A stretch of DNA of 64,000 bases from Candidatus Pacearchaeota archaeon (lineage in GTDB: Archaea; Nanobdellota; Nanobdellia; Pacearchaeales; GW2011-AR1), in NCBI GenBank assembly GCA_041660485.1, contig JBAZWF010000001.1, positions 474,224-538,223 of the forward strand. The letters are read 5' to 3'. Below, in pieces: positions 6,530 through 60,286 of this stretch; within the stretch, counting starts at the first letter, position 1, and each line of letters begins with the position of its first letter. Position numbers and translations under genes: made by a program. The notes below the pieces were generated by a model that had not been told where the DNA came from, ran no database searches, and saw nothing but the letters and a program-made list of their open reading frames with translations.

Positions 6530-6630
6530 ATTTAGTAAACATCCCATATTAGTTTGTGCTACGCAAAACCTTGCTAATTTTAAGCTGTTTAAACATAGAT
6601 GAATTAGTTATATAATCTCAATCTCATAAA
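6530..6630. repeat. about 100-nt dispersed intergenic repeat, copy A (contains bulged hairpin gtttgtgc-tac-gcaaaac)
   Basis: Aligns by eye with 19719..19815 ('ccc[a/t]tat[t/a]ag[t/a]tttgtgct[a/t]cgcaaaacc ... aattagtt[-/t]ata[t/c]aa[-/a]tctcaatc'). 'tttagtaaacatcccat' recurs at 19873..19890. Confidence 0.6.
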
Positions 6631-27146: not shown

Positions 27147-27527
27147 ATGAGCAAAAAGTTATACGTAGGAAATCTTCCTTTCAGCGTAACTATGGAAAAG
27201 CTTAAAGAACTTTTCTCGAGCTACGGAGAACTTGGAGAAGTAACTGTTATCACAAACAAATACACTGGCAAATCTAAAGGATTTGGTTTTGTAACTGTTG
27301 AAGATGATAGTGAAGCTGACAAAGCTATTTCAGAAATGAATGGCAAAGAAATTGAAGGAAGAGCTTTGACCGTTAATGAAGCAAAACCTTTTGACCCTGA
27401 CAAACCTAGACCCCCTAGAAGAGATTTTGGTGGTGGAAGAAGATTTGGCGGCGGAGATAGAGGCGGTTTCGGCGGCGGAGATAGAGGCGGTTTCGGCGGC
27501 GGAAGAAGATTCAGCAGACGAGATTAA
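27147..27527 (+). CDS. RRM-domain RNA-binding protein with Arg/Gly-rich (RGG) tail
   Basis: RNP-2 'LYVGNL', RNP-1 'KGFGFVTV', and the tail 'FGGGRRFGGGDRGGFGGGDRGGFGGGRRF'. SD 'aaggag' lies 7 nt upstream of the ATG. Confidence 0.9.
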   Translation: MSKKLYVGNLPFSVTMEKLKELFSSYGELGEVTVITNKYTGKSKGFGFVTVEDDSEADKAISEMNGKEIEGRALTVNEAKPFDPDKPRPPRRDFGGGRRFGGGDRGGFGGGDRGGFGGGRRFSRRD

Positions 27528-38853: not shown

Positions 38854-39687
38854 ATGGATCAATCAATCCCCATTAAAGAGGCATTTCAAAAAGTTAAAGA
38901 AGATGTATCAAATCTCAAATTTGAACTCTCAAGTATAAAATCTGAGCTTGATGAAATACAGCGTTCTATTTTATTACTTTTGTCATCATTAGATTCAGTT
39001 AAATATCAGCAAAAAACATTTATTCAACAAATTCAACAGACAGACAATCAGACAGACAGACAATCAGACACTTCGACACATAATCAGACACATAATTCGA
39101 CAGAAAACCCTAAAAATTCAACACTTCGACACATAAATAAGACAGAAAAAGCCTCTTCAACACATCCTTCGACACATAATTATGGCTTTCAGGACTTAAA
39201 AGGGTTAAATATCCATATTTCCACAGGAAATAGGGGGGTTTCGACAGACAGACAGACAGACAATCAGACAGACACTTCGACAGGAAATAGGGGGGTTTCG
39301 ACACATCCTTCGACACATAATTTATCCTCGACAATCAAGGAATCTACACAAATTACCTCTCCAAATCCTTTAGCTGTTCTTAATCAGCTTGATAATCTCA
39401 AAAAAGAGATACGTCTTAAATTTAAACGTCTAACTCCTCAAGAAATGCTTGTTTTTTCTTCCATATATCAATTTGAGGATCAAGGTCATCTCGTGGATTA
39501 TACCCTACTTTCAACTCATTTAAACATCTCTGAAAGCTCAATTCGAGATTATATTCAAAGACTCATAATTAAAGGAATTCCCCTCGATAAAGAGAAAATT
39601 AATAACAAAAAAATAGTTCTTCATATCTCGCAGGAATTAAGAAAACTTGCAACCCTTGATACGTTAATTAGCCTAAGAGACCTTTGA
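38854..39687 (+). CDS. coiled-coil / repeat-linker / C-terminal wHTH protein (paralog type A)
   Basis: N-terminal heptad-like 'VSNLKFELSSIKSELDEIQRSI'. Thr/His/Asn/Gln linker built from DNA repeats (TTCGACA x9, two 21-nt and two 18-nt modules). C-terminal 'LTPQEMLVFSSIY...LLSTHLNISESSIRDYIQRLIIKG'. Confidence 0.6.
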   Translation: MDQSIPIKEAFQKVKEDVSNLKFELSSIKSELDEIQRSILLLLSSLDSVKYQQKTFIQQIQQTDNQTDRQSDTSTHNQTHNSTENPKNSTLRHINKTEKASSTHPSTHNYGFQDLKGLNIHISTGNRGVSTDRQTDNQTDTSTGNRGVSTHPSTHNLSSTIKESTQITSPNPLAVLNQLDNLKKEIRLKFKRLTPQEMLVFSSIYQFEDQGHLVDYTLLSTHLNISESSIRDYIQRLIIKGIPLDKEKINNKKIVLHISQELRKLATLDTLISLRDL

Positions 39688-39951: not shown

Positions 39952-40240
39952 CTCACTTTTACTTGTTCACTACATTTTTCTTGTTTTTTATCACTTTTTA
40001 ACCACTAACAAACTCTCACTTTTACGTTTTCCCCTATATTTTGCTTACATATTTTATCCTTTTTTCAGTGATCTTTTGCCTATTTAACTCTCACTTTTAC
40101 GTTTTAAGCCCATTTTTCCCCAAAAATAGCTTCTTTAACTCTCACTTTCACTGTTTTGAGCACTTTTTCCCCTATTTTTTACTCTTTTTCTCAGGTTTTA
40201 CTCTCACTTTCACTGTTTTGAGTATTTTTTCCCTCATTTC
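39952..40240. repeat. five direct copies of a CTCACTTT[T/C]AC.. unit (spacing 63/75/51/62 bp) in a pyrimidine-skewed non-coding tract
   Basis: 'ctcact' occurs at 39952, 40015, 40090, 40141 and 40203. Copies 2-3 share 'aactctcacttttacgtttt'; copies 4-5 share '[a/t]actctcactttcactgttttgag'. In addition, '[c/t][c/t]cactac' occurs at 39723, 39843 and 39966 (about 120-bp period). Confidence 0.7.
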
Positions 40241-40789
40241 TCCCGGGATATATACTCTTTTCTTTCCGCTTAGCTCCACAGACTCCTCTATTAGGCCCTC
40301 ACTTTTCTGTTTTATGCTATTTATTTGGCCTCGAATAGTTGACCGAGTTTTTCCTAACATCGCAGCTAAATCATCATAACTTAGCTTAAGATCATTGTTT
40401 GCCAATACCCATATTATTGCTCTTTCAGTTACAGATAAATTTGAAAATCCATTAAAATTACCTGTTTGAACAGCTGTTTGAACAGCTGTTTGAACACCTT
40501 CAACAGCTGTTTGTTTATGATAAACAGGCTTAGCTGTTTTAAACAGCTGCTTAGAAACATTTTCCCCATACATTGCCATAACATCTTTAAGCTGTTCAAT
40601 CTCATCTTTCATCGACGTAATATCTCCCTTAAGCTCATCTAAACGGGTGTTTAAAGTAATATCTTGGTTGTTTAAGTGAGTTACCCAAGCACCAACTTTG
40701 TCAATATCATTTTTTACGAGTTCAAAAGACCTTTTTGTCTCTTCATGCATAGAATTAAGTTCTCTTTTTTTTGAAAACCAGTTAAACAT
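40172..40789 (-). CDS. coiled-coil / repeat-linker / C-terminal wHTH protein (paralog type B)
   Basis: N-terminal 'LNTRLDELKGDITSMKDEIEQLKDV'. Linker 'QTAVEGVQTAVQTAVQT' encoded by tandem CAGCTGTTTGAA. C-terminal 'LSVTERAIIWVLA...LAAMLGKTRSTIRGQINSIKQKS'. The 3' end runs into the repeat array. Confidence 0.6.
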   Translation of the reverse strand: MFNWFSKKRELNSMHEETKRSFELVKNDIDKVGAWVTHLNNQDITLNTRLDELKGDITSMKDEIEQLKDVMAMYGENVSKQLFKTAKPVYHKQTAVEGVQTAVQTAVQTGNFNGFSNLSVTERAIIWVLANNDLKLSYDDLAAMLGKTRSTIRGQINSIKQKSEGLIEESVELSGKKRVYIPGEMREKILKTVKVRVKPEKKSKK

Positions 40790-40828
40790 ATTATTTATTG
40801 ACGGAGATACTATATAAATGTTTCGTTT

Positions 40829-40980
40829 TAAACAGCTGTTTAAACACTCATAAACACCATTTTATTAACTTAAACACCCGCCAATTTGAAAAAAACAGCT
40901 GTTTAAACACCCATAAACACCCATTTTATCGTCGATAAATTAAAAAATATCAAAAAAAACCATAAACACCCTCATTTTCA
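40829..40980. repeat. iteron-like direct repeats upstream of 40172..40789
   Basis: 'aaacagctgtttaaacac[t/c]cataaacacc[-/c]attttat' occurs at 40829 and 40893 (64-bp period), with a third 'cataaacaccctcatttt' at 40961. TAAACAC occurs 6 times in about 130 bp. Confidence 0.7.
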
Positions 40981-41280
40981 TCATTTTCTCCTCATTTTTT
41001 AACCTATTTTTGTCCATTTTTTACAATTTCCTATTTTTTCACAACCTTTTTCTAATTTTTCTTAAATTAAAAATCCTATTTTTGCCCCTTTTTAGGCCTG
41101 TCAAAACCTTTAAATATCTCAAAATCTTAGTACTTTTAGGCTAAAAAAGAGATCAAGAAACAGACTAAACTAGGGTAAGAACTCCCTTAGTTGAGGTTAG
41201 TTGAGTCTATGTTTGTTATGGGCAAAATAGTCAGCTACCTATAAATTAAGTTCACTAAAAAAATAAAAAGAGGTAAAAAA

Positions 41281-41460
41281 ATGGCAAAATTAACAGCATG
41301 GCTGGTGACAGTTATTGGAGTACTTTTAGTGCTAGCTTTAATTGGCGTTGATATAAACAGTTTCGGAATCGCTAATTTAAGTGCATGGCTTATAGCGCTT
41401 TGTGTACTGGTAATTGGTATCACTAAGCTAATGAGAAACTATAACAAAAAGAGAAAATAA
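41281..41460 (+). CDS. 59-aa 2-TM membrane miniprotein (below ORF-track cutoff)
   Basis: My own translation: MAKLTAWLVTVIGVLLVLALIGVDINSFGIANLSAWLIALCVLVIGITKLMRNYNKKRK*. 'agaggt' lies upstream of the ATG. Preferred over the antisense ORF 41235..41423. Confidence 0.5.
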   Translation: MAKLTAWLVTVIGVLLVLALIGVDINSFGIANLSAWLIALCVLVIGITKLMRNYNKKRK

Positions 41461-41659
41461 TTCTCTGAACTAATTTAATTTTCATTTTTAATTAGATAAG
41501 CTTTAGTTAAATATTTTAATCAATGATAGAAAGTTTTAGCAAAGCAAATATGTAGTCTAATTCTATGCACCAAGAGGATTTAATACCCTTAGTGCACAAA
41601 ATTTTCAAAAATCTTAAAATTATCTAAATATTTAAAAAACCACATTCTTAAATATCTTT

Positions 41660-42052
41660 ATGGATTATTCAAAGGACCAAGAAGAACTAAGAAGAGAAGT
41701 ACTTCGTAAAACTTATCTTGTAGATTATATTGGAAATGACTTGACTCCAGGATTTTATGTTGATAGTTCTTCATTTTCTCACTATTATTTTACCGGACAA
41801 ATCTTTTCTGGAAAATTTGCAGTTTGTCATAGCTCATCTGGGACTAATCACCATTTTTCCTCTTCTGCAACAAAAAACTTTCAAAGAATTGAAAACCCTC
41901 AAGAATATTTAAAAAACTTAAGAGAAGATGTAGACTGCCTAGACAAACTTATCAAAAGATATTACCCAGATACCCGCAAACAAAAAGCCTTAGACAAAGA
42001 AGCTCAAGAAGCAGACAAAGATTTAATTAGGCTTGAAGGAGGATTTAAGTAA
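41660..42052 (+). CDS. hypothetical protein
   Basis: 130-aa ORF with no motif. Confidence 0.45.
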   Translation: MDYSKDQEELRREVLRKTYLVDYIGNDLTPGFYVDSSSFSHYYFTGQIFSGKFAVCHSSSGTNHHFSSSATKNFQRIENPQEYLKNLREDVDCLDKLIKRYYPDTRKQKALDKEAQEADKDLIRLEGGFK

Positions 42053-42053
42053 A

Positions 42054-42317
42054 ATGACAAACAAAAACCCTACACTAACCGAGCTAATAAAAGAATCAAT
42101 AGTGGGGAAATACTTTCAAGATACAAGAAATAAAAGTATACTTTTTTGTAATATTGTCGATTTTTCTCCTTCTCAAGAGAGGGATAAACAATATATTGAT
42201 ATTCAAATGTATTCTAACCAAGGAGAAAACCTAGGCAAACATCTGATAAACCTAGCAAACACCAACTTTTACAGAGAAGTGCCAGAACAAGAATTGCCCT
42301 GGATAAAAAAGAGCTAA
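42054..42317 (+). CDS. hypothetical protein
   Basis: The ORF-track start 42033 is a TTG. The ATG at 42054 follows a 'ggagga' SD and lies 1 nt after the upstream stop, which suggests coupling. Confidence 0.4.
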   Translation: MTNKNPTLTELIKESIVGKYFQDTRNKSILFCNIVDFSPSQERDKQYIDIQMYSNQGENLGKHLINLANTNFYREVPEQELPWIKKS

Positions 42318-42377
42318 AACCTTTTGCTTTTGCTTAAATATTTCAGCATAAGGAAAACCTAAGAAAATCTTAAAAAA

Positions 42378-42734
42378 ATGGAAGATAAAAATCAACAAAC
42401 TTATTCCTCATGCAGGTTATGTATAGATTACTCTCCACACTATTCCTCAAGAGAAAAGGGATTCTGTCAAAGAGTAGATGATGCAAATTTTGTCTTTCCA
42501 GCTTACACAGACTCAAGGTTTGAGTGCCATTTTAATAGCCCAAGACATCTAATTTCAGAGCAAGAAGCAGAACAAAGATACCAAGAGGTCCAAGCCAGAC
42601 ACGAGTCTTTTACAAAGTCCTTAGAACAAGCATCAAAGATTGTTCAAAGTTGGCCTGCTTGGAAACAGCAACTTATGCACGAGATAATCCGCCCCCAATA
42701 CGGGCCTAACCTAAGAAAAAATCAGCCAGACTAA
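42378..42734 (+). CDS. hypothetical Cys/His-containing protein
   Basis: 118-aa ORF; 'CRLC...H..........C....' is a possible metal site. Confidence 0.4.
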   Translation: MEDKNQQTYSSCRLCIDYSPHYSSREKGFCQRVDDANFVFPAYTDSRFECHFNSPRHLISEQEAEQRYQEVQARHESFTKSLEQASKIVQSWPAWKQQLMHEIIRPQYGPNLRKNQPD

Positions 42735-42784
42735 TTTTTCTCTATTCCCGACGGAAAACCCCTCATAAATCGCAATATTTATAT

Positions 42785-42833
42785 ACTAAGGGCACCTATA
42801 ATGCACGTGAACAAGGCATTTTATGCCCTTAGT
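42785..42833. promoter_or_regulatory. 10-bp perfect inverted repeat actaagggca / tgcccttagt (29-nt spacer) carrying the recurrent CCCTTAGTGCAC motif
   Basis: Read directly. Related imperfect copy at 41565..41597; CCCTTAGT also at 41184..41191. Confidence 0.55.
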
Positions 42834-42955
42834 GCACGAATATTAGTTAAAGATTAAGTCAATTGACTAATAAAAATATAAAAAAAGAGAAAAATTACAA
42901 GCTAAAACATTTAGTCAAAAACTAAAAGTTTCAGCATGAATAAGTAATACCTAAA

Positions 42956-43630
42956 ATGATAAAAAAATTTAAAAAAGTAGTGGATAAACACCCATCTAAA
43001 CACCTGTTTAAAAGTCAAACAAATACTAAAGAAATTAAAGTAATTATTTTTGATGTTGGAGGAGTTTTGCTAAAAAGTAGAAACAAGTCTATACATGAAT
43101 ATATGTCTAAAAAATTAAAAGTTAGCTTAGAAGATTGGTTTGACTCAATTGAACAATACTGGGATGAAATGATAAAAGATGAATCAACAACTAACTATGG
43201 GTTAACCCAAATAGCAAGACATTATCATATTCCCAAGTATAAATTAGAAGCTATGTTTACTAAAGGTTTTAAAAAAATATTTAGAAAAGACTATAGAATG
43301 TTCAGACTTTTAAAAAAGCTAAAGAAAACCTATAAAATAGCTATACTTTCAGACCAGCTACTAATGTCTTATAATGCCTTTAAAAAATATAGATTTGATG
43401 AAAGAGTTGATTTAGCTATTTGGTCTCATAAAGAAGGGGTTAGAAAACCAAATATTGAAATTTATCAACTTATTGTTAAGCGCTTAAAAGTTCCTGCTGA
43501 AAGTTGTCTGTTTATTGACAACCGGGACTGGAATTTAATACCTGCAAAAAAAATTGGCATGAAGTTTATTCTTTTTCAAAATTTTAGACAGTTGTTTAAT
43601 CAGCTTAAAGTTTTGGGGGTGAAAATATGA
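42956..43630 (+). CDS. HAD-superfamily hydrolase
   Basis: Motif I variant 'IIFDVGGVL', 'ILSDQ', 'KPNIEIY', 'FIDNRDWN'. ATGA overlap with the recombinase gene. Confidence 0.7.
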   Translation: MIKKFKKVVDKHPSKHLFKSQTNTKEIKVIIFDVGGVLLKSRNKSIHEYMSKKLKVSLEDWFDSIEQYWDEMIKDESTTNYGLTQIARHYHIPKYKLEAMFTKGFKKIFRKDYRMFRLLKKLKKTYKIAILSDQLLMSYNAFKKYRFDERVDLAIWSHKEGVRKPNIEIYQLIVKRLKVPAESCLFIDNRDWNLIPAKKIGMKFILFQNFRQLFNQLKVLGVKI

Positions 43631-44379
43631 CTAACCCCTTAGCAGCAATTTATATAAGAGTTTCAACAGAAGATCAGGTAAAATTTGGAATTTCTCTAAA
43701 TGCCCAACAAGAAGCACTTGAAAACTATTGCAAAGCATTAAGCTATGATATTTTTAAGCTCTATAAAGATGAAGGAAAATCAGGCAAGGATCTCACCCAT
43801 CGCCCAGCAATGCAAGAAATGTTAAGGGATGCAGAATCTCATAAATTTCAAGCAATTTTTATTTATAAGCTTGATAGATTTTCAAGAAGTTTAATGGATT
43901 TAATAACTACAATTGACAAACTTAAAACTTTAGGGGTTGATTTTGTTTCTCTACAAGATAAACTTGAAACAACTTCTGCATCAGGTAAATTAATGTTTCA
44001 TATTATCTCTGCATTTGCAGAATTTGAAAGAAATGTTACAAGTGAAAGGACTAAGTTTACCATGTCAAAAAAAGCCCGTGATGGAAGCGTTGTAACCCGT
44101 GCACCTTTAGGCTATAAAATATCTGATAAAAAGCTAGTTCCTGCTGAAAATTCTTTTATCATCTCTGAAATTTATCATAGTTTTATTAATAACAATATAA
44201 GCCTAACTCAACTAAGCAAGAAGTATAATCTTTCTGTTAATGGGCTGAAAAAAGTTCTTACAAATCAGACATATTTAGGTAAAATAAAGTTTAGCGGAGG
44301 AATTTCCCAAGGCACTCATCCTCCTCTTCTTTCAGAAGAGCTTTTTAATAAAGTTCAGGGAAAGCTAAATAAAAGTTAA
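43627..44379 (+). CDS. serine recombinase (resolvase/invertase-type catalytic domain + C-terminal extension)
   Basis: 'AAIYIRVSTEDQ' (catalytic Ser), 'YKLDRFSRS', 'AEFERNVTSERTK'. Confidence 0.85.
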   Translation: MTNPLAAIYIRVSTEDQVKFGISLNAQQEALENYCKALSYDIFKLYKDEGKSGKDLTHRPAMQEMLRDAESHKFQAIFIYKLDRFSRSLMDLITTIDKLKTLGVDFVSLQDKLETTSASGKLMFHIISAFAEFERNVTSERTKFTMSKKARDGSVVTRAPLGYKISDKKLVPAENSFIISEIYHSFINNNISLTQLSKKYNLSVNGLKKVLTNQTYLGKIKFSGGISQGTHPPLLSEELFNKVQGKLNKS

Positions 44380-44403
44380 ATAAAAATCAATTAATTCTAA
44401 TCT

Positions 44404-44907
44404 TTATATAAAGAAATTTCTTACTGTTTTATTAAACCAAAGATAGTATAACAATATTCCATAGATAATCAAGGATATTATTGCTGAAAAAGGATTAAGT
44501 ATAAAGGTCATAAGAGCATTTAATATGCCAAATATAACTAATATTAATGCCACAACATAAGCCCATTTCTTTCCTTTCATTAAATCTCTTCCAATAAACC
44601 ACTCAACACCTCCAATCAATATTGCAATTACTCCTGCAAAAATTATTGTAATAAATGCAATTTCCCCTACAATTACTTGAGAAAGGTCTAAACCCGGAAC
44701 TAGTTGCATAACTTGATCTACCCCAAGCATACCAATTAATGCAGTTCCTGTAATTCCTCCAAGCATCATAAGAAGTCCACTAATTACACTTAATACTGCA
44801 AAAATATAGAATAATATTGATAAAACTTTAACTTCTTTAGGAGCAGATTTTTTAAAGTTATTTTTAATATTCATAACTTTATTTTTTACCTTCCTCTTTT
44901 TAACCAT
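44404..44907 (-). CDS. 4-TM membrane protein, paralog of 45697..46203
   Basis: Shared 'MVKKRK' N-terminus, 'VLSI[LI][FL]YI' first helix, 'GR[DG]L[MW]KG[KQ]KW' loop and 'YYLWFNKTVRNFF'/'WYLFFVEEVKKFF' ends. Confidence 0.55.
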   Translation of the reverse strand: MVKKRKVKNKVMNIKNNFKKSAPKEVKVLSILFYIFAVLSVISGLLMMLGGITGTALIGMLGVDQVMQLVPGLDLSQVIVGEIAFITIIFAGVIAILIGGVEWFIGRDLMKGKKWAYVVALILVIFGILNALMTFILNPFSAIISLIIYGILLYYLWFNKTVRNFFI

Positions 44908-44985
44908 ATCTAATTTAGGTTTTTAACCTTTTTAAATATATCTGATGCAATATATACTTTAGAATATTACCTTAAAAATAAAATA

Positions 44986-45480
44986 TTAAATAAAATTTAT
45001 TTTGTCTCCGATAGAAATATTATTTTTTTCAACTTCCCCTGCATTTAATTCTAAAACATATATTGTATTTTCATTTGGTTTATATATTTCACATTTACTT
45101 TCTTTACAAGGCAGAGCATTTTCTTTAATATAAACAACCTTTTTATTTTCATCAATCCAGATTATATCTAAAGCAATTAAAGTGTTTTTCATCCAGAAAT
45201 TATAAATCCCTTTATCCTCAAAAATAAACAACATGCCACTATTTTCATTTAATTTTTCTCTAAACATTAATCCTCTTTCTCTTTCAACACTTGTTTGTGC
45301 TAACTCTACCGAAAAACAACGCTGTTTGAAGCATACTTTATTTGTTTGAACAGCTGTTTGTTTAATTATTTGCCCTGTTTGAACAGCTGTTTGCTGTTTA
45401 ACTAGATTATAAACAACTAAAAATGTAATGATTATCACTAAAATTATTAATAGATAATTAATTTTATTTAATCTTTTCAT
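44986..45480 (-). CDS. DUF192 family protein with N-terminal anchor
   Basis: 'RERGLMFRE...GMLFIF......FWMKNTLIALDIIWID' pattern. The N-terminal linker carries the QTAVQT/CAGCTG repeats. Confidence 0.7.
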   Translation of the reverse strand: MKRLNKINYLLIILVIIITFLVVYNLVKQQTAVQTGQIIKQTAVQTNKVCFKQRCFSVELAQTSVERERGLMFREKLNENSGMLFIFEDKGIYNFWMKNTLIALDIIWIDENKKVVYIKENALPCKESKCEIYKPNENTIYVLELNAGEVEKNNISIGDKINFI

Positions 45481-45696: not shown

Positions 45697-46203
45697 TTAA
45701 GAAAAGAATTTTTTTACTTCTTCAACAAAGAAAAGATACCAGATAATAAAACAATAAACTATTATCGAGATTATATTAAAAAATTTCCCATGGATTAAAC
45801 TTGAAAGTGAGTTAAAAAAGAAAAATACAATCATAATTGTAAATAAAATCCTACTCCATTTTTGTCCTTTCCATAATCCTCTTGCAATAAAAAAGTCAAG
45901 TATTGCTCCTAATATAAAAATAATCCCGATTAAACCAATTAAAGGAACAATTAAATTTTGAAAAGCAACAATTTCTTCCGGAGTATATCCATTTTCTTGT
46001 AATTGGGAGGTAATGTTTGAGGAACTTATTTGGGAATTGATTATATTTCCCTCAAAAATTGTAACTATTACAATTAATAATCCTAAAATTAAACATATTC
46101 CAGAAATAATGTATAATATAATAGATAAAACTTGTACCCCTGCAGGAATTTTTCCTTTATTTACAGGTTTTCCTTCCTTCCTTATCTTCCTCTTTTTAAC
46201 CAT
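45697..46203 (-). CDS. 4-TM membrane protein, paralog of 44404..44907
   Basis: See 44404..44907. Confidence 0.55.
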   Translation of the reverse strand: MVKKRKIRKEGKPVNKGKIPAGVQVLSIILYIISGICLILGLLIVIVTIFEGNIINSQISSSNITSQLQENGYTPEEIVAFQNLIVPLIGLIGIIFILGAILDFFIARGLWKGQKWSRILFTIMIVFFFFNSLSSLIHGKFFNIISIIVYCFIIWYLFFVEEVKKFFS

Positions 46204-56208: not shown

Positions 56209-57264
56209 ATGGAATGTGAGTTTAAGCAAGAAGACTTCAAGCGACTAATCTATTGGATTACTCTAAAGTTTAAAGAAGATGAATTCCATCACCAAGCAGC
56301 ATCTACTAAGAGCGATTTAATTGGTGGTTTCTTCGATAGATGGTTTAATAGGGCTTCAGAATTTATAATCTTTCGAGAACTATTAAAGAACAAAGACTAT
56401 GATGTTGTGATTGATAACTTCTTATATGGCCAAGATACAAAGAAGAATGCTCCTGATGTCATTGGATTGAAAGATAGGAAAGAGAATACTCTAGTTCAAT
56501 TTACACTTTTTAATAATGGAGATTGGGAAGTAATTCCTTCAATGCCGTTTATTGAAGTAAAAACTAATAGAGAGAAACAAAAGTTAATATCTATTGGAGA
56601 TACACAAATGAATAAAGACCATTATTATGTTATTGTGGAGTCTCACATTAGGGAAGATTATCTTATAACCCTTTTTGAAGATTCTGTTTTTAGTCAAGAC
56701 ACATTTAATTCTTTAAAAGTTAGTAAAGACTTTATAAAATCTGATGCTAACAATCAAATAATCACACCTAAACCCTTGCAAATTAAAAAGAATCTAGGTT
56801 CATTTAGACTTATTGGGATTTTTAGCGGTGAGGAAATAAAGAAGTATTGTTTATTAGTTGGAGTTGATGGAGAGGGAAATACACAAAAACCATACTATTT
56901 TGATACTATTGAGAAGACAAAACCCAATTCTAATGATGGAGAGGAAATAAAAGAAGGTTGTTATTCCTATGGTGGTGAGTACATTCCTTTTTGTATAGAA
57001 TTCGTTGATAAGAAATCAAAGGTTAGTCTAGTAAAGAGATTGAAAGGTCATATGGTTATTAATGTTGAAGGAACTATTAAGATAAATGGAATTGAAGCAA
57101 GTGATGGGTTCTATAAAGTGATGTTTAAAAAATTTGATAGAAGCTCTAAAAAGAAGGAATATATTGGAGATAAATATCTATTTGATTGTATCGCCGTAGA
57201 TAAAACAAACGAACTTATCTCCAAATTTGACGATTTAGTAAAGAAAGCAAAGTCTAAAAGATAG
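56209..57264 (+). CDS. putative type II restriction endonuclease (PD-(D/E)XK candidate)
   Basis: Position next to vsr and convergent with a C5-MTase. 'APDVIGL...(about 30 aa)...FIEVKT' fits PD...ExK. No other family assignment is possible by eye. Confidence 0.5.
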   Translation: MECEFKQEDFKRLIYWITLKFKEDEFHHQAASTKSDLIGGFFDRWFNRASEFIIFRELLKNKDYDVVIDNFLYGQDTKKNAPDVIGLKDRKENTLVQFTLFNNGDWEVIPSMPFIEVKTNREKQKLISIGDTQMNKDHYYVIVESHIREDYLITLFEDSVFSQDTFNSLKVSKDFIKSDANNQIITPKPLQIKKNLGSFRLIGIFSGEEIKKYCLLVGVDGEGNTQKPYYFDTIEKTKPNSNDGEEIKEGCYSYGGEYIPFCIEFVDKKSKVSLVKRLKGHMVINVEGTIKINGIEASDGFYKVMFKKFDRSSKKKEYIGDKYLFDCIAVDKTNELISKFDDLVKKAKSKR

Positions 57265-57281
57265 TTTACTCTACTTCTATT

Positions 57282-57629
57282 ATGGTTGATAATCTAACTA
57301 GCAGTCAAAGAAGTTATTGTATGTCTAAGATTAGAAGTAAAAATACTTCGCCAGAATTAATCTTAAAGAAACAATTTAAATCATGGGTTTATCAACCAAA
57401 AGAATTTGGAAAGCCCGACTTTATTGATTATAAAAAGAAGTTGGTGGTATTTATTGATGGATGTTTTTGGCATAAGTGTCCTATTCATGGAAACAAGCCC
57501 AAGTCAAATAAAAAATATTGGCTTCCTAAATTAGAAAGAAATGTTATTAGAGATAGAGAAGTAGATTTAACATACAAATTCGCTGGATGGAAAACTAAAA
57601 GAATTTGGGAACACGAGTTAGGTAATTAG
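57282..57629 (+). CDS. vsr: very-short-patch repair endonuclease
   Basis: 'RSYCMSKIRSKNTSPE', 'GKPDFI', 'VFIDGCFWHKCP', 'YWLPKLERNVIRD', 'GWKTKRIWEHE' read as the Vsr signature. Confidence 0.9.
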   Translation: MVDNLTSSQRSYCMSKIRSKNTSPELILKKQFKSWVYQPKEFGKPDFIDYKKKLVVFIDGCFWHKCPIHGNKPKSNKKYWLPKLERNVIRDREVDLTYKFAGWKTKRIWEHELGN

Positions 57630-57634
57630 ATTGT

Positions 57635-58615
57635 TTAGCTTTCTGCGCATAATACCATCATCATATTATTAGCTATTCTTTCAATAACTGGAACAACTAC
57701 ACTATTTCCAGCTTGATGATATAATTTACTATCGGCTAATTGAGGAAGTTTAAACTCTTTTGGAAATCCCTGCAATGAAAAACATTCTTTAGGCGTGAGC
57801 TTCCTAATTCCTTTTCCATTTTTTATTATTGGAACATTGTGTCCTCCAAGCCCCATATTTGCTGTTAGTGTTGGACAAACTCCTTTCTTATTAGCTCTAA
57901 CATACTTTCTTCTCCATTGATAAACAGTCTCTTCGGAGTTAATGTCATTCTTTATTCTTTCATAAAGAGGTTTATCATTATAGTAGTATTTATCACCAGC
58001 TTCATTTGCTACATATTCTTTAAAACTTTTTGTTAATTTTATTTCATCTGGAAAATTAAAAGCTTCTGATTTAGATTTGTCTAAGAACCCCACAATAAAT
58101 ATTCTCTCTCTATTCTGCGGGACATTTCCATGAGTCATACTATTAAGAACTTCTGTTTTAACGTGGTATCCCAATTTTTCCAATGTTTCTTTTATAACCT
58201 TAAAGGTGTTTCCTTTGTCGTGTCCTTTTAGATTTTTTACATTCTCAAGAAGTATTGCTTTAGGTTTTTTAGCTTCTATAATTTCTGCAATTCTAAAGAA
58301 CAAATTGCCTCTTCCTTTTTCATCTTTAAATCCTTCCATATAACCTGCAACAGAAAAGGGCTGGCATGGGAATCCTCCAAGTAGAATATCAAAAATTGGA
58401 AGTGTGCTAAGGTCTAATTTATTTACATCTTCAGTGTTAAGCTTTGGTTCTGAAAAATTTAAGTCATAAGTCTCTTTACACGTTTTATCAAAATCATTTG
58501 AAAATACCGTAACGAAACCCGCTTTCTCAAATCCTAATCTTATACCGCCTACTCCTGCAAATAAGTCAATAGTTCTAAACTCTTTTTTCGCCATATTATT
58601 GTTATGTTTCACCAT
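57635..58615 (-). CDS. dcm: DNA (cytosine-5)-methyltransferase
   Basis: Motif I 'DLFAGVGG', IV 'GGFPCQPFS', VI 'LLENVKNL', VIII 'QNRERIFIVG', X 'AGNSVVVPV'. Confidence 0.95.
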   Translation of the reverse strand: MVKHNNNMAKKEFRTIDLFAGVGGIRLGFEKAGFVTVFSNDFDKTCKETYDLNFSEPKLNTEDVNKLDLSTLPIFDILLGGFPCQPFSVAGYMEGFKDEKGRGNLFFRIAEIIEAKKPKAILLENVKNLKGHDKGNTFKVIKETLEKLGYHVKTEVLNSMTHGNVPQNRERIFIVGFLDKSKSEAFNFPDEIKLTKSFKEYVANEAGDKYYYNDKPLYERIKNDINSEETVYQWRRKYVRANKKGVCPTLTANMGLGGHNVPIIKNGKGIRKLTPKECFSLQGFPKEFKLPQLADSKLYHQAGNSVVVPVIERIANNMMMVLCAES

Positions 58616-58618
58616 TTT

Positions 58619-59146
58619 TTAATCTTTATTATAACGTAAATAATAGCCTCCTTTGTTCCTATATTTTTTATCTTTAGACCCAATAGGTCTACCTAATTTC
58701 TTACCTTCTTTCTTTCTTCTCTCTAATCCTAATTTGATTCGTTCTTTTAAAACTTCCCTTTCCATTTCTCCAAAACTGGCGAGTATAGTGAAGAAGAATT
58801 TACCCATAGGAGAGAAAGTATCTATATTCTGACTCGTAGCTATTAAACGAACCTCCTTATTTTTTAACTCTTCTAAGACTTGTAAAAGGTGTTGTGTGCT
58901 TCGCCCGAGTCTATCAAATTTCCAAACAATAATAGTGTCAAAACATTTATTTCTCATATCTTGCAACATAATATCTAATTGTGGCCTAGATGTCTTCACG
59001 CCAGAAACACCCTCATCTTTGTATACTTTAAAGATTTCATAACTTTCTCTTTCACAATAAGCTTTAAGTTCTAGTTCTTGATTTAAAGTAGTTTGGTCGT
59101 TAGTTGAAACTCTTGTATATATTGCACATATTTTTTTATTTTCCAT
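58619..59146 (-). CDS. small serine recombinase (resolvase/invertase catalytic domain)
   Basis: 'CAIYTRVSTNDQ', 'WKFDRLGRS', 'GEMEREVLKERIK'. Starts 3 nt after... that is, lies directly downstream of the MTase gene on the same strand. Confidence 0.85.
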   Translation of the reverse strand: MENKKICAIYTRVSTNDQTTLNQELELKAYCERESYEIFKVYKDEGVSGVKTSRPQLDIMLQDMRNKCFDTIIVWKFDRLGRSTQHLLQVLEELKNKEVRLIATSQNIDTFSPMGKFFFTILASFGEMEREVLKERIKLGLERRKKEGKKLGRPIGSKDKKYRNKGGYYLRYNKD

Positions 59147-59299
59147 TTACGAATCTCCTTCAATCAGTTTTAAATTAACAATAATTAATATTAATAACAA
59201 TGCTACAAACCACCAATACTCTTTAATTCTAAATGAGTTTATAGTTACAACTACCAAAACAATATCAACAACCAATATCAACTCTTTATTGTATTCCAT
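59147..59299 (-). CDS. small TM miniprotein
   Basis: ORF track 59147..59332. The internal ATG at 59299 ('MEYNKE') reduces the overlap with the upstream ORF. Two hydrophobic helices. Confidence 0.35.
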   Translation of the reverse strand: MEYNKELILVVDIVLVVVTINSFRIKEYWWFVALLLILIIVNLKLIEGDS

Positions 59300-59492
59300 T
59301 TTGTGATTTTGTATCTCCTTTATTTTTTTCAAGAAGCTTGAAAATTATTATTAATAAAATAATGATTAGTATAAGTGAAATCATTCCCCAAACTGCTAAA
59401 ACCAAAACAACATCACCTAAGTAAGTTTTTTGTAAACACTCAATTCCACTTATAGTATTGTTAATTGTTTGATTCATTTTTACCCCCATCAT
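59286..59492 (-). CDS. small TM miniprotein
   Basis: 68-aa ORF with one long hydrophobic helix. Confidence 0.35.
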   Translation of the reverse strand: MMGVKMNQTINNTISGIECLQKTYLGDVVLVLAVWGMISLILIIILLIIIFKLLEKNKGDTKSQNGIQ

Positions 59493-59498
59493 TATTTA

Positions 59499-59577
59499 CT
59501 TTGGAAGCACTTAGATATTCAGCAAGAGCGGTCCATCTCCCAACATGGCATATTATTTTATCCTCATGCTTCCAAAG
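59499..59577. repeat. 11-bp perfect inverted repeat ctttggaagca / tgcttccaaag with 57-nt relatively GC-richer spacer
   Basis: Read directly. It occupies the whole intergenic gap between 59492 and 59579. Confidence 0.7.
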
Positions 59578-59578
59578 A

Positions 59579-59782
59579 TTATTCTTTTTCATTTTCATCT
59601 CCTTTAGTTGATTGAATCATTCCAATAAAGTCACATTCTACATCTGCCATGTCCCCATATTTATCAATAATCTCAAAAGATGTTCCATTAAATTTTGGAA
59701 TTGTTGCAGTGTAATTGTAATTATTTTTTAAAACAATTTTACATCTTTTACCAATATATTTTTTTACAGACTCAACATCCAT
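59579..59782 (-). CDS. small hypothetical protein
   Basis: 67-aa ORF; 11-nt overlap with the upstream ORF. Confidence 0.4.
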   Translation of the reverse strand: MDVESVKKYIGKRCKIVLKNNYNYTATIPKFNGTSFEIIDKYGDMADVECDFIGMIQSTKGDENEKE

Positions 59783-60059
59783 TTTCTAATTCCTCCCTTT
59801 GTTTAATAGAGTAATTTTCTAATTTAGTTTGAGGATTTAGCCAAGTGAATTTATAACCATTAAAGTGACCATCAAAATCTATAAGACCCTCTACCTCGAC
59901 CTTATCTCCAATTTTGAATCTATTAGGTATGAACCTACAATAAATTCTAACTCCACTATCCAATATGAACTCACAACTATCTTGGTAAATTGATTTGTTT
60001 TTGGAAACAATTTCTTTAATTCTTCCAACTACAACATCTAACTCTCTTTCTTCAATCAT
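59772..60059 (-). CDS. small hypothetical protein
   Basis: 95-aa ORF within the operon. Confidence 0.4.
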   Translation of the reverse strand: MIEERELDVVVGRIKEIVSKNKSIYQDSCEFILDSGVRIYCRFIPNRFKIGDKVEVEGLIDFDGHFNGYKFTWLNPQTKLENYSIKQREELENGC

Positions 60060-60286
60060 CTTAATATGACCTCCTTAGTTTTATACAGATTATACTTAGT
60101 GTCAAAATCAATCATATTTGATGAAAATCCACCTAAACTTATACGTATAATTAGTAATGAAGAAAAATCATTTATACACCTTATACTCTTTATACACCTA
60201 TCTTTACGTATCTTATCTATAAAGAAGCCTAAGTAAGAAGAAGTGTATAATTGGTATAATCTGTAATACCTATTAATTTTCATCAT
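60056..60286 (-). CDS. small hypothetical protein (doubtful)
   Basis: 76-aa ORF bridging the primase stop and the next gene. Odd composition. Confidence 0.25.
   Translation of the reverse strand: MMKINRYYRLYQLYTSSYLGFFIDKIRKDRCIKSIRCINDFSSLLIIRISLGGFSSNMIDFDTKYNLYKTKEVILR

What the first reader, a model, noticed from the sequence alone, without database searches (positions are those of the whole stretch)
40471..45389. Eight CAGCTG palindromes with shared flanks (GTTTGAACAGCTGTTTG / AAACAGCTGTTTAAACAC) clustered in 5 kb, in both coding and non-coding DNA
CAGCTG occurs at 40471, 40483, 40504, 40544 (inside gene 40172..40789), at 40833 and 40896 (its upstream region), and at 45351 and 45384 (inside the N-terminal linker of the DUF192 gene, giving the same QTAVQT peptide). 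A GC-rich hexamer should be rare in a genome this AT-rich, so eight flank-conserved copies are unlikely by chance. The same DNA motif written into two unrelated ORFs suggests selection at the DNA level (protein-binding site, methylation/restriction target, recombination hot-spot), or recent repeat spread. Related half-motifs occur at 6586 (aagctgtttaaaca), 4566 (ccagctgtt) and 43003 (aaacacctgtttaaaag).
Basis: seen in the sequence. Interest (0 to 1): 0.6.

Follow-up and report, generated by a model that had tools for sequence, protein, structure and literature searches.

The report
Conserved DNA-binding motif array overlapping genes
A 12-base DNA word is repeated upstream of and inside a DNA-binding-protein gene beside the replication origin of a tiny groundwater archaeon, and related genomes keep it even at silent codon positions, so the same DNA appears to be both protein code and a protein-binding array.

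Summary
All eight CAGCTG sites are where stated. The extended palindrome AACAGCTGTT occurs 7 times against 0.06 expected, only in this cluster.

CAGCTG is not the unit. It is the junction between tandem 12-bp units, SSTGTTYRAACA. The window is from a Pacearchaeota (DPANN) genome. The cluster lies 3-8 kb from a canonical oriC/cdc6.

Gene 40172-40789 encodes a long helix, a disordered linker and a MarR-like winged helix. It belongs to a family of more than 2,600 proteins.

In 61 related genomes:
- The same palindromes sit upstream of the orthologue, at 2.5 per kb against 0.13 per kb background.
- The linker peptide KQLFKT...KQTAVxxVQTxVQTxVQT is conserved.
- Silent codon positions in that peptide are nearly frozen, unlike five neighbouring genes.

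So the QTAV repeat is ancient, not an insertion, and selection acts on the DNA. DUF192 orthologues in the closest clade carry the same word.

The most likely reading is a binding-site array for the gene's own product, giving autoregulation or an origin-proximal nucleoprotein domain. Binding itself is inferred, not shown. I found no support for an RNA structure, recombination, copy-number variation or restriction/methylation. A convergent paralogue has its own frozen (ACAG)n array.

The parts
40172..40789 (-). Gene 'wHTH-1' (205 aa). It has a conserved MFxWF-KK N-terminus, one long helix (residues 3-76), a disordered linker (77-112) and a C-terminal MarR/Lrs14-like winged helix (120-194).
   Evidence: ORF. 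Family of more than 2,600 proteins. Alignment. AlphaFold model. Foldseek hits to MepR, MarR and AbfR2. Pfam gives only weak HTH_11, below its cut-off.
40463..40552 (-). Intragenic array of about 7-8 tandem 12-bp units (AAACAGSTGTTY). It encodes KQLFKT (aa 80-85) and KQTAVEGVQTAVQTAVQT (aa 92-109). It holds CAGCTG at 40471, 40483, 40504 and 40544, and a perfect 12-nt x2.9 tandem repeat at 40462-40496.
   Evidence: Silent-site constraint. The region is predicted disordered.
40826..40975 (.). Upstream non-coding array. It has two 18-mers AAACAGCTGTTTAAACAC (40830-40847, 40893-40910) inside a 63-nt duplication. It also has six TAAACACC half-sites (40841, 40851, 40871, 40904, 40914, 40963). In gene sense these read GGTGTTTA.
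   Evidence: (family D6). The same architecture is found upstream of orthologues.
40811..40818 (-). TATA-like box (TTTATATA in gene sense), about 25 nt upstream of the ATG. The proximal palindrome lies just upstream of it.
   Evidence: Read from the sequence. Similar TTTAAATA/TTTATAAA boxes are seen in orthologous loci. Promoter function is inferred.
40928..40936 (.). Element A, ATCGTCGAT (TTATCGWCGATAA in relatives). The same word is frozen in codons 58-61 of orthologues (TCG TCG ATA AAA). In the window the coding copy is degenerate (40607-40618).
45344..45393 (-). Two 17-mers GTTTGAACAGCTGTTTG (45344-45360, 45377-45393) in the DUF192 gene. They encode KQQTAVQT and KQTAVQT just after the membrane anchor.
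   Evidence: (family D2). K(Q)QTxVQT is present in the closest DUF192 clade, written CAA ACA NNT GTT CAA ACA where the motif is complete.
44986..45480 (-). DUF192 gene (164 aa, signal anchor plus DUF192 domain).
   Evidence: Pfam PF02643, E = 9e-35.
42996..43012 (.). Single full unit of the G/C-centre type, TAAACACCTGTTTAAAA, in the N-terminus of the HAD hydrolase gene (codons KHLFKS).
   Evidence: In relatives, sites flank HAD hydrolase genes.
35628..35643 (.). Single unit TTTAAACACCTGTTTA in the N-terminus of the PolD small-subunit gene (codons KQVFK), on the other side of oriC. No site lies on that side in the 61 related loci.
40005..40222 (-). Element C, AAAGTGAGAGTT in gene sense. One copy lies in the C-terminal codons KVRV (40199-40210). 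Three exact copies lie downstream of the stop codon (40137, 40086, 40011), within repeat units whose starts are 51-75 nt apart.
   Evidence: (families D3, D4). V195 is GTG in 51 of 52 orthologues against a 22% background. 100 of 102 copies in the loci are on the sense strand between 0 and +1 kb.
38854..39687 (+). Convergent paralogue (277 aa) with coiled coil, low-complexity linker and winged helix. Its linker DNA holds its own frozen word, GGGGTTTCGACAGACAGACAGACA (39235-39262; a second array at 39036-39070).
   Evidence: (present in 61 of 61 loci).
37160..37410 (.). Probable replication origin. An AT-only stretch (37248-37330) is flanked by inverted ORB-like boxes: CCCTGACACCC..TTTCTACTGGAAA at 37163 and GGGGTCAGGG at 37384-37393. 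It lies between cdc6 (35722-36930) and the PRC-barrel operon.
   Evidence: Calling these ORB boxes rests on my own knowledge of archaeal ORB elements.

Best explanation
The CAGCTG hexamers are the joints between tandem 12-bp units of consensus SSTGTTYRAACA. Two adjacent units read ...TGTTTAAACAG|CTGTTTAAACA.... These units are most likely binding sites for a dimeric winged-helix protein, most probably the product of gene 40172-40789 itself.

Perfect units (TGTTTAAACA) form an array just upstream of the gene's TATA box. Coding-compatible units form a second array about 300 bp downstream, inside the DNA for the protein's disordered linker. In the QTxV frame these read TGTTCAAACA, because the T-to-C change avoids an in-frame TAA stop. 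In the KQLFK frame the perfect unit is kept.

The protein's long N-terminal helix would let winged-helix pairs bridge the two arrays. This would work like an auxiliary operator inside a gene, or block elongation, and so give feedback control of the gene.

Weaker satellite sites in neighbouring genes (DUF192, HAD hydrolase) extend the bound zone over 5-6 kb on the side away from oriC.

Shown here: the motif, its conservation across 61 related genomes, selection on the nucleotides inside coding DNA, the winged-helix fold, and the position next to oriC. Inferred: which protein binds, looping or roadblock, and autoregulation.
For: 1. Excess and locality. AACAGCTGTT occurs 7 times against 0.06 expected. 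AACAGSTGTT gives 9 sites, all within 35.6-45.4 kb.

2. Conservation. In 61 related genomes CAGCTG density is 2.48/kb in the 400 nt upstream of the orthologue and 3.23/kb in its CDS, against 0.127/kb elsewhere. In the 59 upstream sites, each position of AAACAGCTGTTT is kept in 52-59 of them. They are flanked by GGTGTTTA/GCTGTTTA half-sites at an 10-12 nt period.

3. Selection on nucleotides in the CDS (53 orthologues):
- Q is CAA in 157 of 157 cases (background 64%).
- V is never GTA (background 26%).
- The x codon ends in T in all 106 cases: GCT 57/57 (50%), GGT 38/38 (32%), CCT 9/9.
- In KQLFKT, L is CTG 10/10 (6%) and Q is CAG 19/21 (36%).

4. Pairs under 60% protein identity share the codon at 0.87-0.94 of identical residues in the motif, against 0.58 elsewhere and 0.56 in the winged-helix domain. 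Five neighbouring genes have no 6-codon window at 0.85 or above (maximum 0.73). This gene has six.

5. The same C/G ambiguity at the unit centre appears in non-coding and coding copies. The rare TGTCC variant co-occurs upstream and in the CDS of the same genomes (Fisher p = 7e-4).

6. The motif region is predicted disordered (pLDDT below 50 for residues 77-112), so protein structure is an unlikely cause of the conservation.

7. The C-terminal domain matches MarR, MepR and AbfR2, which in my own knowledge bind palindromes as dimers. Its putative recognition helix STIRGQINxIKQKS is nearly invariant, as is the motif.

8. In the source metagenome, k-mer depth triples exactly over the array (59.8 against about 20). 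This suggests other community members share the same 31-mers.
Against: - No binding data exist. The binder could be another protein, such as the paralogue or the HTH_69 protein encoded next door.
- A position upstream of the TATA box suits an activator or an architectural role as well as a repressor.
- The peptide itself is conserved (V, Q and T invariant). A 4-residue QTxx period also occurs in the paralogue, so a protein-level role may coexist.
- The codon statistics treat related sequences as independent. I controlled for this only by using pairs under 60% identity and neighbouring control genes.
- The genome-wide distribution could not be checked beyond the 64-kb window and about 700 kb of related loci.
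Confidence: 0.6

Rival explanations
1. The same protein-DNA binding takes place, but its purpose is chromosome organisation rather than gene control. The array would be a centromere-like or anchoring site next to oriC, comparable to parS/ParB, the SegB sites or RacA/ram. The coiled-coil winged-helix protein would bridge DNA. Its conserved MFxWF-KK N-terminus might tether DNA to the membrane or to a partner.
For: - The cluster lies 3-8 kb from a canonical oriC.
- Gene order with cdc6 is conserved. The paralogue is present in 61 of 61 loci, and cdc6 lies within 6 kb in 41.
- Sites spread over 5-6 kb in coding and non-coding DNA, only on one side.
- The operon next door starts with a PRC-barrel protein.
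- SegB sites are palindromes with a central S, sit upstream of segAB, and cluster around oriC1 (PMC12284271).
- The family is widespread: 351 GTDB species matched.
Against: - No ParA/SegA-type ATPase is encoded in the 64-kb window.
- Most sites are concentrated at one promoter and gene, as for an autoregulator.
- The satellite sites often lie in promoter regions of HAD hydrolase and rubrerythrin genes, which looks like a regulon.
- There is no localisation or genome-wide data.
Confidence: 0.2
2. Selection acts only on the peptide. QTAVQT/VQTxVQT would be a functional short linear motif, for example a modification, cleavage or interaction site, shared by two proteins. The DNA identity would be a side effect of AT-biased codon use.
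For: - V, Q and T of the repeat are invariant in the family.
- The paralogue has an analogous TDRQ repeat.
- DUF192 relatives keep K(Q)QTxVQT.
Against: - Silent positions are frozen far beyond codon bias. Different codons for the same residue are fixed at different positions: Q is CAA in VQT but CAG in KQLFK.
- Rare codons are fixed: CTG at a 6% background and GTG at 22%.
- Non-coding copies of the same word lie upstream in most of the 61 loci.
- One protein is cytoplasmic, and the DUF192 motif lies outside the membrane anchor.
- The region is predicted disordered.
Confidence: 0.07
3. Selection acts on the mRNA. The palindromes would form a hairpin, or be bound by a protein or small RNA, to control translation or stability.
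For: The window's own linker RNA folds strongly (-33.9 kcal/mol for 102 nt). Element C copies lie in the sense orientation in the probable 3' UTR.
Against: - The consensus structure over 54 orthologues is only -1.1 kcal/mol, with no compensatory pairs.
- Centre changes GCT to GGT break the hairpin and are frequent (AGG 8, GGG 6). CCT does not pair preferentially with GGT.
- The perfect copies lie upstream of the TATA-like box, so they are probably not transcribed with the gene.
Confidence: 0.05
4. The sites are substrates for site-specific recombination by the adjacent serine recombinase, or they vary in copy number by slippage. Either would give deletion or inversion between the in-frame QTAVQT copies, or phase variation.
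For: - A serine recombinase gene (43627-44379) lies between the two coding clusters.
- The 56-nt stretches at 40458 and 45338 are direct repeats in the same reading frame.
- Recombinases (serine or tyrosine type) are common in this interval.
Against: - Only 23 of 61 loci have the serine recombinase within 6 kb, yet the orthologues in these loci keep the coding array and most keep upstream sites.
- Gene order and orientation are constant.
- The repeat number is fixed at QTxV plus three VQT units in 51 of 62 sequences.
- The assembled contigs of the source run show no well-supported alternative joint. That evidence is weak, since only contigs and no reads were available.
Confidence: 0.03
5. CAGCTG is the target of a restriction-modification or methylation system (PvuII-type).
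For: CAGCTG is a classic type II palindrome (my own knowledge). A C5 methylase gene is in the window (57635-58615).
Against: - That methylase matches M.HhaI over its full length (E = 5e-58).
- CAGCTG outside the cluster is at the chance level, neither avoided nor enriched.
- The conserved word is 12 bp or longer and tolerates C or G at the centre, which destroys CAGCTG.
Confidence: 0.02

Closest known systems
Archaeal SegB centromere-like sites (Saccharolobus solfataricus; PMC12284271)
   Same: Both have a palindromic motif with a tolerated central S (TCTAGA-S-TCTAGA). Both have sites just upstream of the binding protein's own operon, plus a cluster of further sites around the locus and oriC1.
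   Different: SegB is a ribbon-helix-helix protein that works with the ParA-type ATPase SegA. Here the candidate binder is a coiled-coil winged-helix protein, and no ParA-type gene is in the window. Here the array is written into about 100 nt of the binder's own coding sequence. I did not check whether SegB sites lie in coding DNA.
Bacterial parS/ParB, including the parS inside the B. subtilis spo0J gene (my own knowledge, not checked here)
   Same: Both have a short palindrome clustered near the origin. Both occur in coding DNA, including the gene of the binding protein itself, and both are conserved across a large clade.
   Different: There is no ParB N-terminal or HTH domain (Pfam). Here the units form tandem arrays at a 12-bp period rather than single 16-bp sites. 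Spreading or CTPase activity is unknown.
RacA/ram sites of B. subtilis (my own knowledge, not checked here)
   Same: Both combine a winged-helix-type DNA-binding domain with a long coiled coil. Both have a GC-containing palindrome in origin-proximal DNA, and the RacA system anchors the chromosome.
   Different: The domain order is reversed. There is no detectable sequence relationship. ram sites are spread over hundreds of kb, whereas here most sites sit at one gene.
MarR / Lrs14 (AbfR) type autoregulated winged-helix regulators
   Same: The best structural matches of the C-terminal domain are MepR, MarR and AbfR2. Those are dimers that bind palindromes, often at their own promoters (my own knowledge).
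   Different: No Pfam MarR-family match appears among the hits listed at E <= 0.01; the only HTH hit, HTH_11, is below its cut-off. The dimerisation module is a separate 75-residue N-terminal helix joined by a 35-residue disordered linker. The operator array extends into the coding region.
Auxiliary operators inside genes (lac O2 in lacZ) and dual-use codons (my own knowledge, not checked here)
   Same: A second binding site sits a few hundred bp downstream inside coding DNA, where it could loop to the promoter-proximal site. Codon choice is constrained by the binding site.
   Different: Here there are 7-8 tandem units, not a single site. They shape a conserved peptide repeat, and they have been kept across hundreds of species-level genomes.
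Iteron-type replicons (rep gene flanked by an inverted-repeat operator and direct-repeat iterons; my own knowledge)
   Same: A winged-helix gene has palindromes at its promoter and a different direct repeat (element C) at its other end.
   Different: There is no Rep family match, though the paralogue has weak sub-threshold hits to HTH_36 and DnaD_N. No AT-rich unwinding stretch adjoins element C. A canonical oriC lies 3 kb away.

Membership tests
Autoregulated winged-helix transcription factor with a palindromic operator | Winged helix-turn-helix DNA-binding fold | tested here: met
   In the AlphaFold model, residues 120-194 have block-mean pLDDT 80-91. Foldseek matches MepR, MarR, AbfR2 and SlyA (E about 2e-4 to 1e-3).
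Autoregulated winged-helix transcription factor with a palindromic operator | Palindromic sites at the regulator's own promoter, conserved in relatives | tested here: met
   There are 61 CAGCTG-centred palindromes in the 400 nt upstream of the orthologues in 61 loci plus the window. That is 20 times the flanking density.
Autoregulated winged-helix transcription factor with a palindromic operator | The protein binds these sites and changes its own transcription | not testable with these tools
   This needs a gel-shift or footprint assay and a reporter. No transcriptome was found for this organism.
MarR family (Pfam PF01047 / PF12802) | Sequence match to the family model above its threshold | tested here: not met
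   Pfam gives only HTH_11 at 20.3 bits, below the cut-off of 25. NCBIfam gives only sub-threshold Sta1 and Csa3 hits.
ParABS partition system | ParB-type protein (ParB N-terminal domain plus HTH) and a ParA ATPase | tested here: not met
   No ParB domain was found in the protein. No ORF in the window has a deviant Walker A motif.
ParABS partition system | Palindromic sites clustered near the replication origin | tested here: inconclusive
   All 9 sites in the window lie within 8 kb of oriC. Only 64 kb of the 857-kb contig could be examined.
SegAB segrosome | Ribbon-helix-helix SegB plus ParA-like SegA in an operon | tested here: not met
   The fold is a winged helix, not ribbon-helix-helix. 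There is no ParA-like gene.
Restriction-modification target (CAGCTG) | A cognate methylase or nuclease, and a genome-wide effect on site frequency | tested here: not met
   The only methylase in the window resembles M.HhaI. The four sites outside the cluster fit the expectation of 4.5 for the whole window. The rest of the genome was not examined.
Site-specific recombination sites (serine recombinase) | Sites co-occur with the recombinase, and rearranged forms exist | tested here: not met
   The recombinase is near the gene in 23 of 61 loci, while the orthologues keep the coding array with or without it. Synteny is constant. The contigs show no supported alternative joints; raw reads were not available.
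Contingency locus (slipped-strand tandem repeat) | Repeat copy number varies between close relatives | tested here: not met
   The pattern QTxV-xx-VQTx-VQTx-VQT is kept in 51 of 62 sequences, with a fixed number of units.
Structured RNA element | Conserved secondary structure with compensatory changes | tested here: not met
   RNAalifold gives -1.1 kcal/mol, and all predicted pairs are invariant, with none compensatory. There is no Rfam match in 36.8-46.0 kb apart from one chance-level hit.
Iteron replicon | Rep-family initiator, and iterons next to an AT-rich unwinding element | tested here: not met
   There is no Rep family match. The AT-only stretch with ORB-like boxes lies at 37.2-37.4 kb, not next to the arrays.

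The most novel reading that the evidence does not exclude
Pacearchaeota and Woesearchaeota may carry a previously undescribed origin-proximal nucleoprotein module. It would consist of two convergent coiled-coil winged-helix paralogues next to oriC/cdc6. Each would have its cognate DNA array written into the coding sequence of its own disordered linker: (SSTGTTYRAACA)n for one and GGGGTTYCR(ACAG)n for the other. Further frozen words (AAAGTGAGAGTT, TCGWCGATAA) lie at the gene ends. The module would act as a centromere or anchoring device, with the conserved MFxWF-KK N-terminus serving as a membrane or partner tether. That would make it a ParA-independent way to organise or segregate the chromosome in DPANN archaea.
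Probability: 0.15. Interest if true: 0.85.

Novelty: new variant of a known kind. Interest (0 to 1): 0.62.

Why it matters
DPANN archaea are uncultivated, and almost nothing is known about their gene regulation or chromosome biology. This locus offers a testable protein-DNA pair: a 205-residue protein and an 18-bp site. The pair is conserved in hundreds of species-level genomes and sits beside the replication origin.

It is also an unusually clean natural case of dual-use sequence. About 100 nt of coding DNA is constrained at nearly every silent position, and the DNA word appears to dictate a conserved peptide repeat in a disordered linker. That matters in three practical ways:
- Conserved 'motifs' in disordered regions may need a DNA-level reading.
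- Codon-based selection tests can be misled at such loci.
- Annotation of compact genomes should allow regulatory sites to hide inside genes.

If the origin-proximal reading is right, the locus would point to a segregation or anchoring device in archaea that lack SegAB or ParAB.

Tried and rejected
- Chance or general genomic word: rejected.
- Recent insertion or repeat spread: rejected, because the peptide and the DNA are conserved in orthologues.
- Codon bias or translational pausing: rejected for this gene. The frozen codons are position-specific and include both common and rare ones. Control genes show no such windows.
- Overlapping gene in another frame: rejected. Alternative-frame open stretches have a median of 7-35 codons.
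- RNA hairpin: no covariation. Rfam found nothing relevant.
- Methylation or restriction: the methylase resembles M.HhaI, and the site is not avoided.
- Recombination or phase variation: synteny and repeat number are constant.
- Read-level test for rearrangements: only assembler contigs of one groundwater metagenome were available. The joints had 20-23 nt support and are not credible.
- DUF192 locus scan in GTDB: it returned mostly distant lineages without the motif. This showed only that the motif is clade-restricted.
- Co-evolution of the recognition helix with site variants: uninformative, because the helix is nearly invariant.
- Literature search for the motif and for Pacearchaeota origins: nothing relevant.
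- Homologue search for the neighbouring 151-aa protein: 2 hits only, so no structure prediction was attempted.

Full report
**Observation**

All eight CAGCTG sites are at the stated coordinates. The window has 12 copies against 4.5 +/- 2.1 expected. The four outside the cluster lack the flanks and fit the background.

The extended palindrome AACAGCTGTT occurs 7 times against 0.06 expected, and only in the cluster. When the centre may be C or G (AACAGSTGTT), there are 9 distinct sites against 0.24 strand matches expected. All lie between 35.6 and 45.4 kb.

The 17-mer GTTTGAACAGCTGTTTG occurs twice in gene 40172-40789 and twice in the DUF192 gene. The 18-mer AAACAGCTGTTTAAACAC occurs twice upstream of the first gene. 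Three of the CAGCTG sites in that gene belong to a perfect 12-nt tandem repeat at 40462-40496.

**Where this is**

The window is about 28% GC. The closest relatives of its proteins are from Pacearchaeota and 'Woesearchaeota' metagenome-assembled genomes, which are DPANN archaea. The source contig is 856,651 bp and comes from a groundwater metagenome.

cdc6/orc1 is at 35722-36930, followed by the two PolD subunit genes. The 830-nt gap beyond cdc6 holds an AT-only stretch (37248-37330). Inverted boxes flank it: CCCTGACACCC..TTTCTACTGGAAA on one side and TTTCTATAAGAAACCAAGGGGTCAGGG on the other. This is the usual anatomy of an archaeal origin with ORB elements; the ORB identification rests on my own knowledge. 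The motif cluster therefore starts about 3 kb from the probable oriC.

**The gene**

ORF 40172-40789 (-) encodes 205 residues. The AlphaFold model built from 30 relatives gives:
- one long helix (residues 3-76);
- a segment with pLDDT below 50 (residues 77-112);
- a confident winged helix-turn-helix (residues 120-194).

The winged helix best matches MepR, MarR, SlyA and the archaeal Lrs14-type AbfR2. No curated family claims the protein. Pfam gives HTH_11 below its cut-off, and NCBIfam gives only sub-threshold hits. The PDB sequence search finds mainly coiled coils.

The family has more than 2,600 members in the protein collection. It matched in 351 GTDB species genomes.

**The QTAV repeat is ancient, not an insertion**

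In the alignment, the linker reads KQLFKT-x6-KQTAV-xx-VQTx-VQTx-VQT in every member.

**The same word is a conserved non-coding element**

I fetched 80 related loci, found the gene in 61, and analysed those together with the window.
- CAGCTG density is 2.48/kb in the 400 nt upstream of the gene and 3.23/kb in the gene. It is 0.127/kb in the remaining 644 kb.
- The 59 upstream sites all read (T/C)AAACAGCTGTTT(A/G).
- They are usually embedded in runs of GGTGTTTA or GCTGTTTA at a 10-12 nt period, upstream of a TTTAAATA/TTTATAAA box.
- Genomes whose coding repeat has no CAGCTG at all (x = G) still have the upstream palindromes.

**Selection on the nucleotides inside the coding sequence**

In 53 orthologues with VQTxVQTxVQT:

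| Codon position | Observed | Background in the rest of the gene |
|---|---|---|
| Q = CAA | 157 of 157 | 64% |
| T = ACA | 147 of 158 | 60% |
| V = GTA | never | 26% |
| x = GCT (Ala) | 57 of 57 | 50% |
| x = GGT (Gly) | 38 of 38 | 32% |
| x = CCT (Pro) | 9 of 9 | 54% |

In KQLFKT the opposite Q codon is fixed (CAG 19/21). The next codon always ends in G: CTG 10/10 against 6%, and GTG 8/8.

A column-by-column test shows the same picture. It adds two further frozen spots: TCG TCG at residues 58-59, and GTG at V195.

Among sequence pairs under 60% protein identity, identical residues use the identical codon at these rates:
- 0.94 in KQLFKT;
- 0.87 in KQTAV..VQT;
- 0.58 elsewhere in the gene;
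- 0.56 in the well-conserved winged-helix domain.

As a control, five neighbouring genes from the same loci were tested: PRC barrel, the 151-aa protein, the HTH_69 protein, HAD hydrolase and the serine recombinase. None has a 6-codon window at 0.85 or above (maximum 0.73). This gene has six such windows, with a maximum of 0.94. These tests do not model phylogeny, so the contrast is what counts, not the nominal p-values.

**What the unit is**

Laid out as DNA, the linker of any orthologue is a run of 7-8 units of AAACAG-S-TGTTY. The upstream arrays are the same run with TGTTTAAACA.

The perfect unit CAGCTGTTTAAA has an in-frame stop (TAA) in one of its three frames. The gene uses the two possible solutions:
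- the frame CAG CTG TTT AAA (= QLFK), which keeps the perfect unit;
- the frame CAA ACA GCT GTT (= QTAV), in which the T of TAA is replaced by C.

The centre base pair is free (C or G) in both coding and non-coding copies. This is why x is Ala (GCT), Gly (GGT) or Pro (CCT). CAGCTG is simply the joint of two units when the centre is C.

A rarer half-site variant, TGTCC, tends to occur both upstream and in the CDS of the same genomes. All 5 genomes with at least two upstream copies also have at least two in the CDS, against 11 of 57 others (Fisher p = 7e-4). This is modest evidence, because the genomes are related.

**DUF192**

The gene 44986-45480 encodes a membrane anchor, then KQQTAVQT-GQII-KQTAVQT, then the DUF192 domain.
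- Among 120 homologues, K(Q)QTxVQT-like linkers are found mainly in the closest roughly 20 homologues, at about 50% identity or more.
- Distant lineages lack them.
- Where DNA was available (window, L002, L010/L161, L162, L164), complete copies are written CAA ACA NNT GTT CAA ACA. The sample is small, so this is consistent with the DNA-level reading but is not proof.
- DUF192 keeps its place about 4 kb upstream of the winged-helix gene in the close relatives.

**Satellite sites**

Across the 61 loci, AACAGSTGTT density varies with position relative to the gene:
- 2.6/kb in the gene;
- 1.3/kb in the first kb upstream;
- 0.07-0.26/kb from -2 to -6 kb, which is 33 sites and far above chance;
- zero in 282 kb on the oriC side.

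The satellites lie at the ends of HAD hydrolase genes, inside recombinase genes, and in promoter gaps next to a HAD hydrolase and rubrerythrin. The window's sites at 43003 (HAD) and 45344/45377 (DUF192) belong to this class. The site at 35631 in PolD DP1 lies on the oriC side, where none of the 61 related loci has a site.

**Mechanism**

The simplest reading is that the units are binding sites for a dimeric winged-helix protein. The motif follows this gene through hundreds of genomes, and the gene's recognition helix is as invariant as the motif. The gene's own product is therefore the first candidate.

The proximal palindrome abuts the TATA-like box, and the coding array lies about 300 bp downstream. 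A protein whose DNA-binding domains hang on 35-residue flexible linkers from a long coiled coil could bridge the two arrays. It could also sit on the coding array as a roadblock. Either would give feedback control.

All of this step is inference, because there are no binding or expression data. I put 0.6 on 'protein-binding array, most likely autoregulatory'. I put a further 0.2 on the same binding serving an origin-proximal organising or centromere-like role.

The second reading has these points in its favour:
- the position next to oriC;
- conserved linkage with cdc6 and a PRC-barrel operon;
- the spread of sites over several kb in coding and non-coding DNA;
- the parallel with SegB, whose 13-bp palindrome with a central S lies upstream of segAB and clusters around oriC1 (PMC12284271).

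Against it, the window encodes no ParA-type ATPase, and many satellite sites look like ordinary promoter sites.

**Rivals tested**

- RNA structure. The window's linker RNA folds well. Over 54 orthologues, however, the consensus is -1.1 kcal/mol, no pair covaries, and the frequent GCT-to-GGT changes break the hairpin.
- Overlapping gene. None is conserved.
- Copy-number variation. The unit number is fixed.
- Recombination. The serine recombinase (43627-44379) is near the gene in only 23 of 61 loci, and gene order never changes. Only assembler contigs were available for the source run, and they show no credible alternative joints.
- Restriction or methylation. The only methylase in the window is M.HhaI-like over its whole length, and CAGCTG is not avoided.

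One incidental observation supports extreme nucleotide conservation. In the source metagenome the assembler's word depth is 59.8 over the coding array and 30.7 over the paralogue's array, against about 20 elsewhere. This suggests other organisms in the sample share those 31-mers.

**More of the same kind nearby**

The convergent paralogue (38854-39687) is present in 61 of 61 loci. It has its own conserved linker peptide, GNxGV(S/P)TDRQTDRQTD, written as GGAAATnnnGGGGTTYCRACAGACAGACAGACA. Its silent sites are frozen even harder:
- D = GAC 44/44 against 31%;
- N = AAC 38/38 against 28%;
- Q = CAG 85/90 against 30%;
- G = GGG 46/46 against 25%.

It has 14 windows at 0.85 or above. That word occurs nowhere else in the loci.

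A third word, AAAGTGAGRGTT, is frozen in the C-terminal KVRV codons of the first gene. It is repeated 1-3 times downstream of the stop codon in 34 of 62 loci, always in the sense orientation.

A fourth word, TCGWCGATAA, is shared between codons 58-61 and the upstream region.

The finding is therefore one visible part of a 3-kb stretch in which coding DNA is densely overwritten with conserved nucleotide words.

**Novelty and verdict**

No paper in the searchable library mentions the motif or this gene family. Operators, intragenic auxiliary sites and centromere sites inside the binder's own gene are known kinds. What is new is the scale and depth: tandem arrays of about 100 nt that dictate a conserved peptide repeat in a disordered linker, in two paralogues, next to oriC, across a major DPANN lineage. 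I rate it a new variant of a known kind, with interest 0.62.

Noticed in passing
window 38854-39687 (arrays at 39036-39070 and 39235-39262): The convergent paralogue (coiled coil, linker, winged helix) carries a different word in its linker DNA, GGGGTTYCR(ACAG)n, encoding GV(S/P)TDRQTDRQTD. Its silent codon positions are nearly invariant in 46 orthologues. The word occurs nowhere else in the 62 loci.
   Followed up: partly
window 40005-40222: Element C, AAAGTGAGRGTT, is frozen in the C-terminal KVRV codons of the winged-helix gene. It is repeated in sense orientation downstream of the stop codon: 3 exact copies here, and at least one copy in 34 of 62 loci. The downstream copies look like decayed duplicates of the gene's last 50-60 nt. 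Function is unknown.
   Followed up: partly
window 41587-41597 and 42827-42837; loci L015-L079, from -200 to -1300 relative to the gene: Another conserved word, TTGTGCACTWAGGTTAnCTTWGTT, has 35 copies in 25 of 62 loci, always on the same strand and often as a pair 400-900 nt apart. In the window each copy lies about 60-120 nt upstream of a + strand gene (the ORF at 41660 and the HAD hydrolase at 42956). It may be an operator of a different regulator.
   Followed up: partly
window 37160-37410: Probable oriC. An AT-only stretch (37248-37330) is flanked by inverted ORB-like boxes between cdc6 and a PRC-barrel operon. The PolD DP1 and DP2 genes lie downstream of cdc6.
   Followed up: partly
window 41660-42734: Three small ORFs at slightly higher GC (about 31.5%). 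One of them has a single match (in L011) and the other two have none in the 61 related loci. They are flanked by the two copies of the GTGCACTAAGG word and lie next to a HAD hydrolase and a 250-aa serine recombinase. This may be a variable or inserted segment.
   Followed up: no
window 29230-34170: The PolD large-subunit ORF is 1,646 aa, several hundred residues longer than usual. This suggests an intein.
   Followed up: no
window 56209-62444: A cluster of three genes plus a 351-aa ORF without family matches. The genes are an M.HhaI-like C5 cytosine methylase (57635-58615), a 175-aa resolvase (58619-59146) and a primase-type protein with a DnaG zinc ribbon and DUF5906 (60273-62444). It is probably an integrated mobile element carrying a restriction-modification module.
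   Followed up: partly
window 27447-27503: A perfect 24-nt tandem repeat (2.4 copies), GGCGGCGGAGATAGAGGCGGTTTC, lies at the 3' end of ORF 27147-27527. It is GC-rich in a 28% GC genome.
   Followed up: no
window 44404-44907 and 45697-46203: Two paralogous membrane proteins (167 and 168 aa, weak DUF7144 match, both starting MVKKRK) bracket the DUF192 gene on the same strand.
   Followed up: no
window 6585-6595: A single perfect unit, CTGTTTAAACA, lies in the gap between ORFs 5681-6526 and 6715-7362, far from the cluster. It may be chance or a distant satellite site.
   Followed up: no
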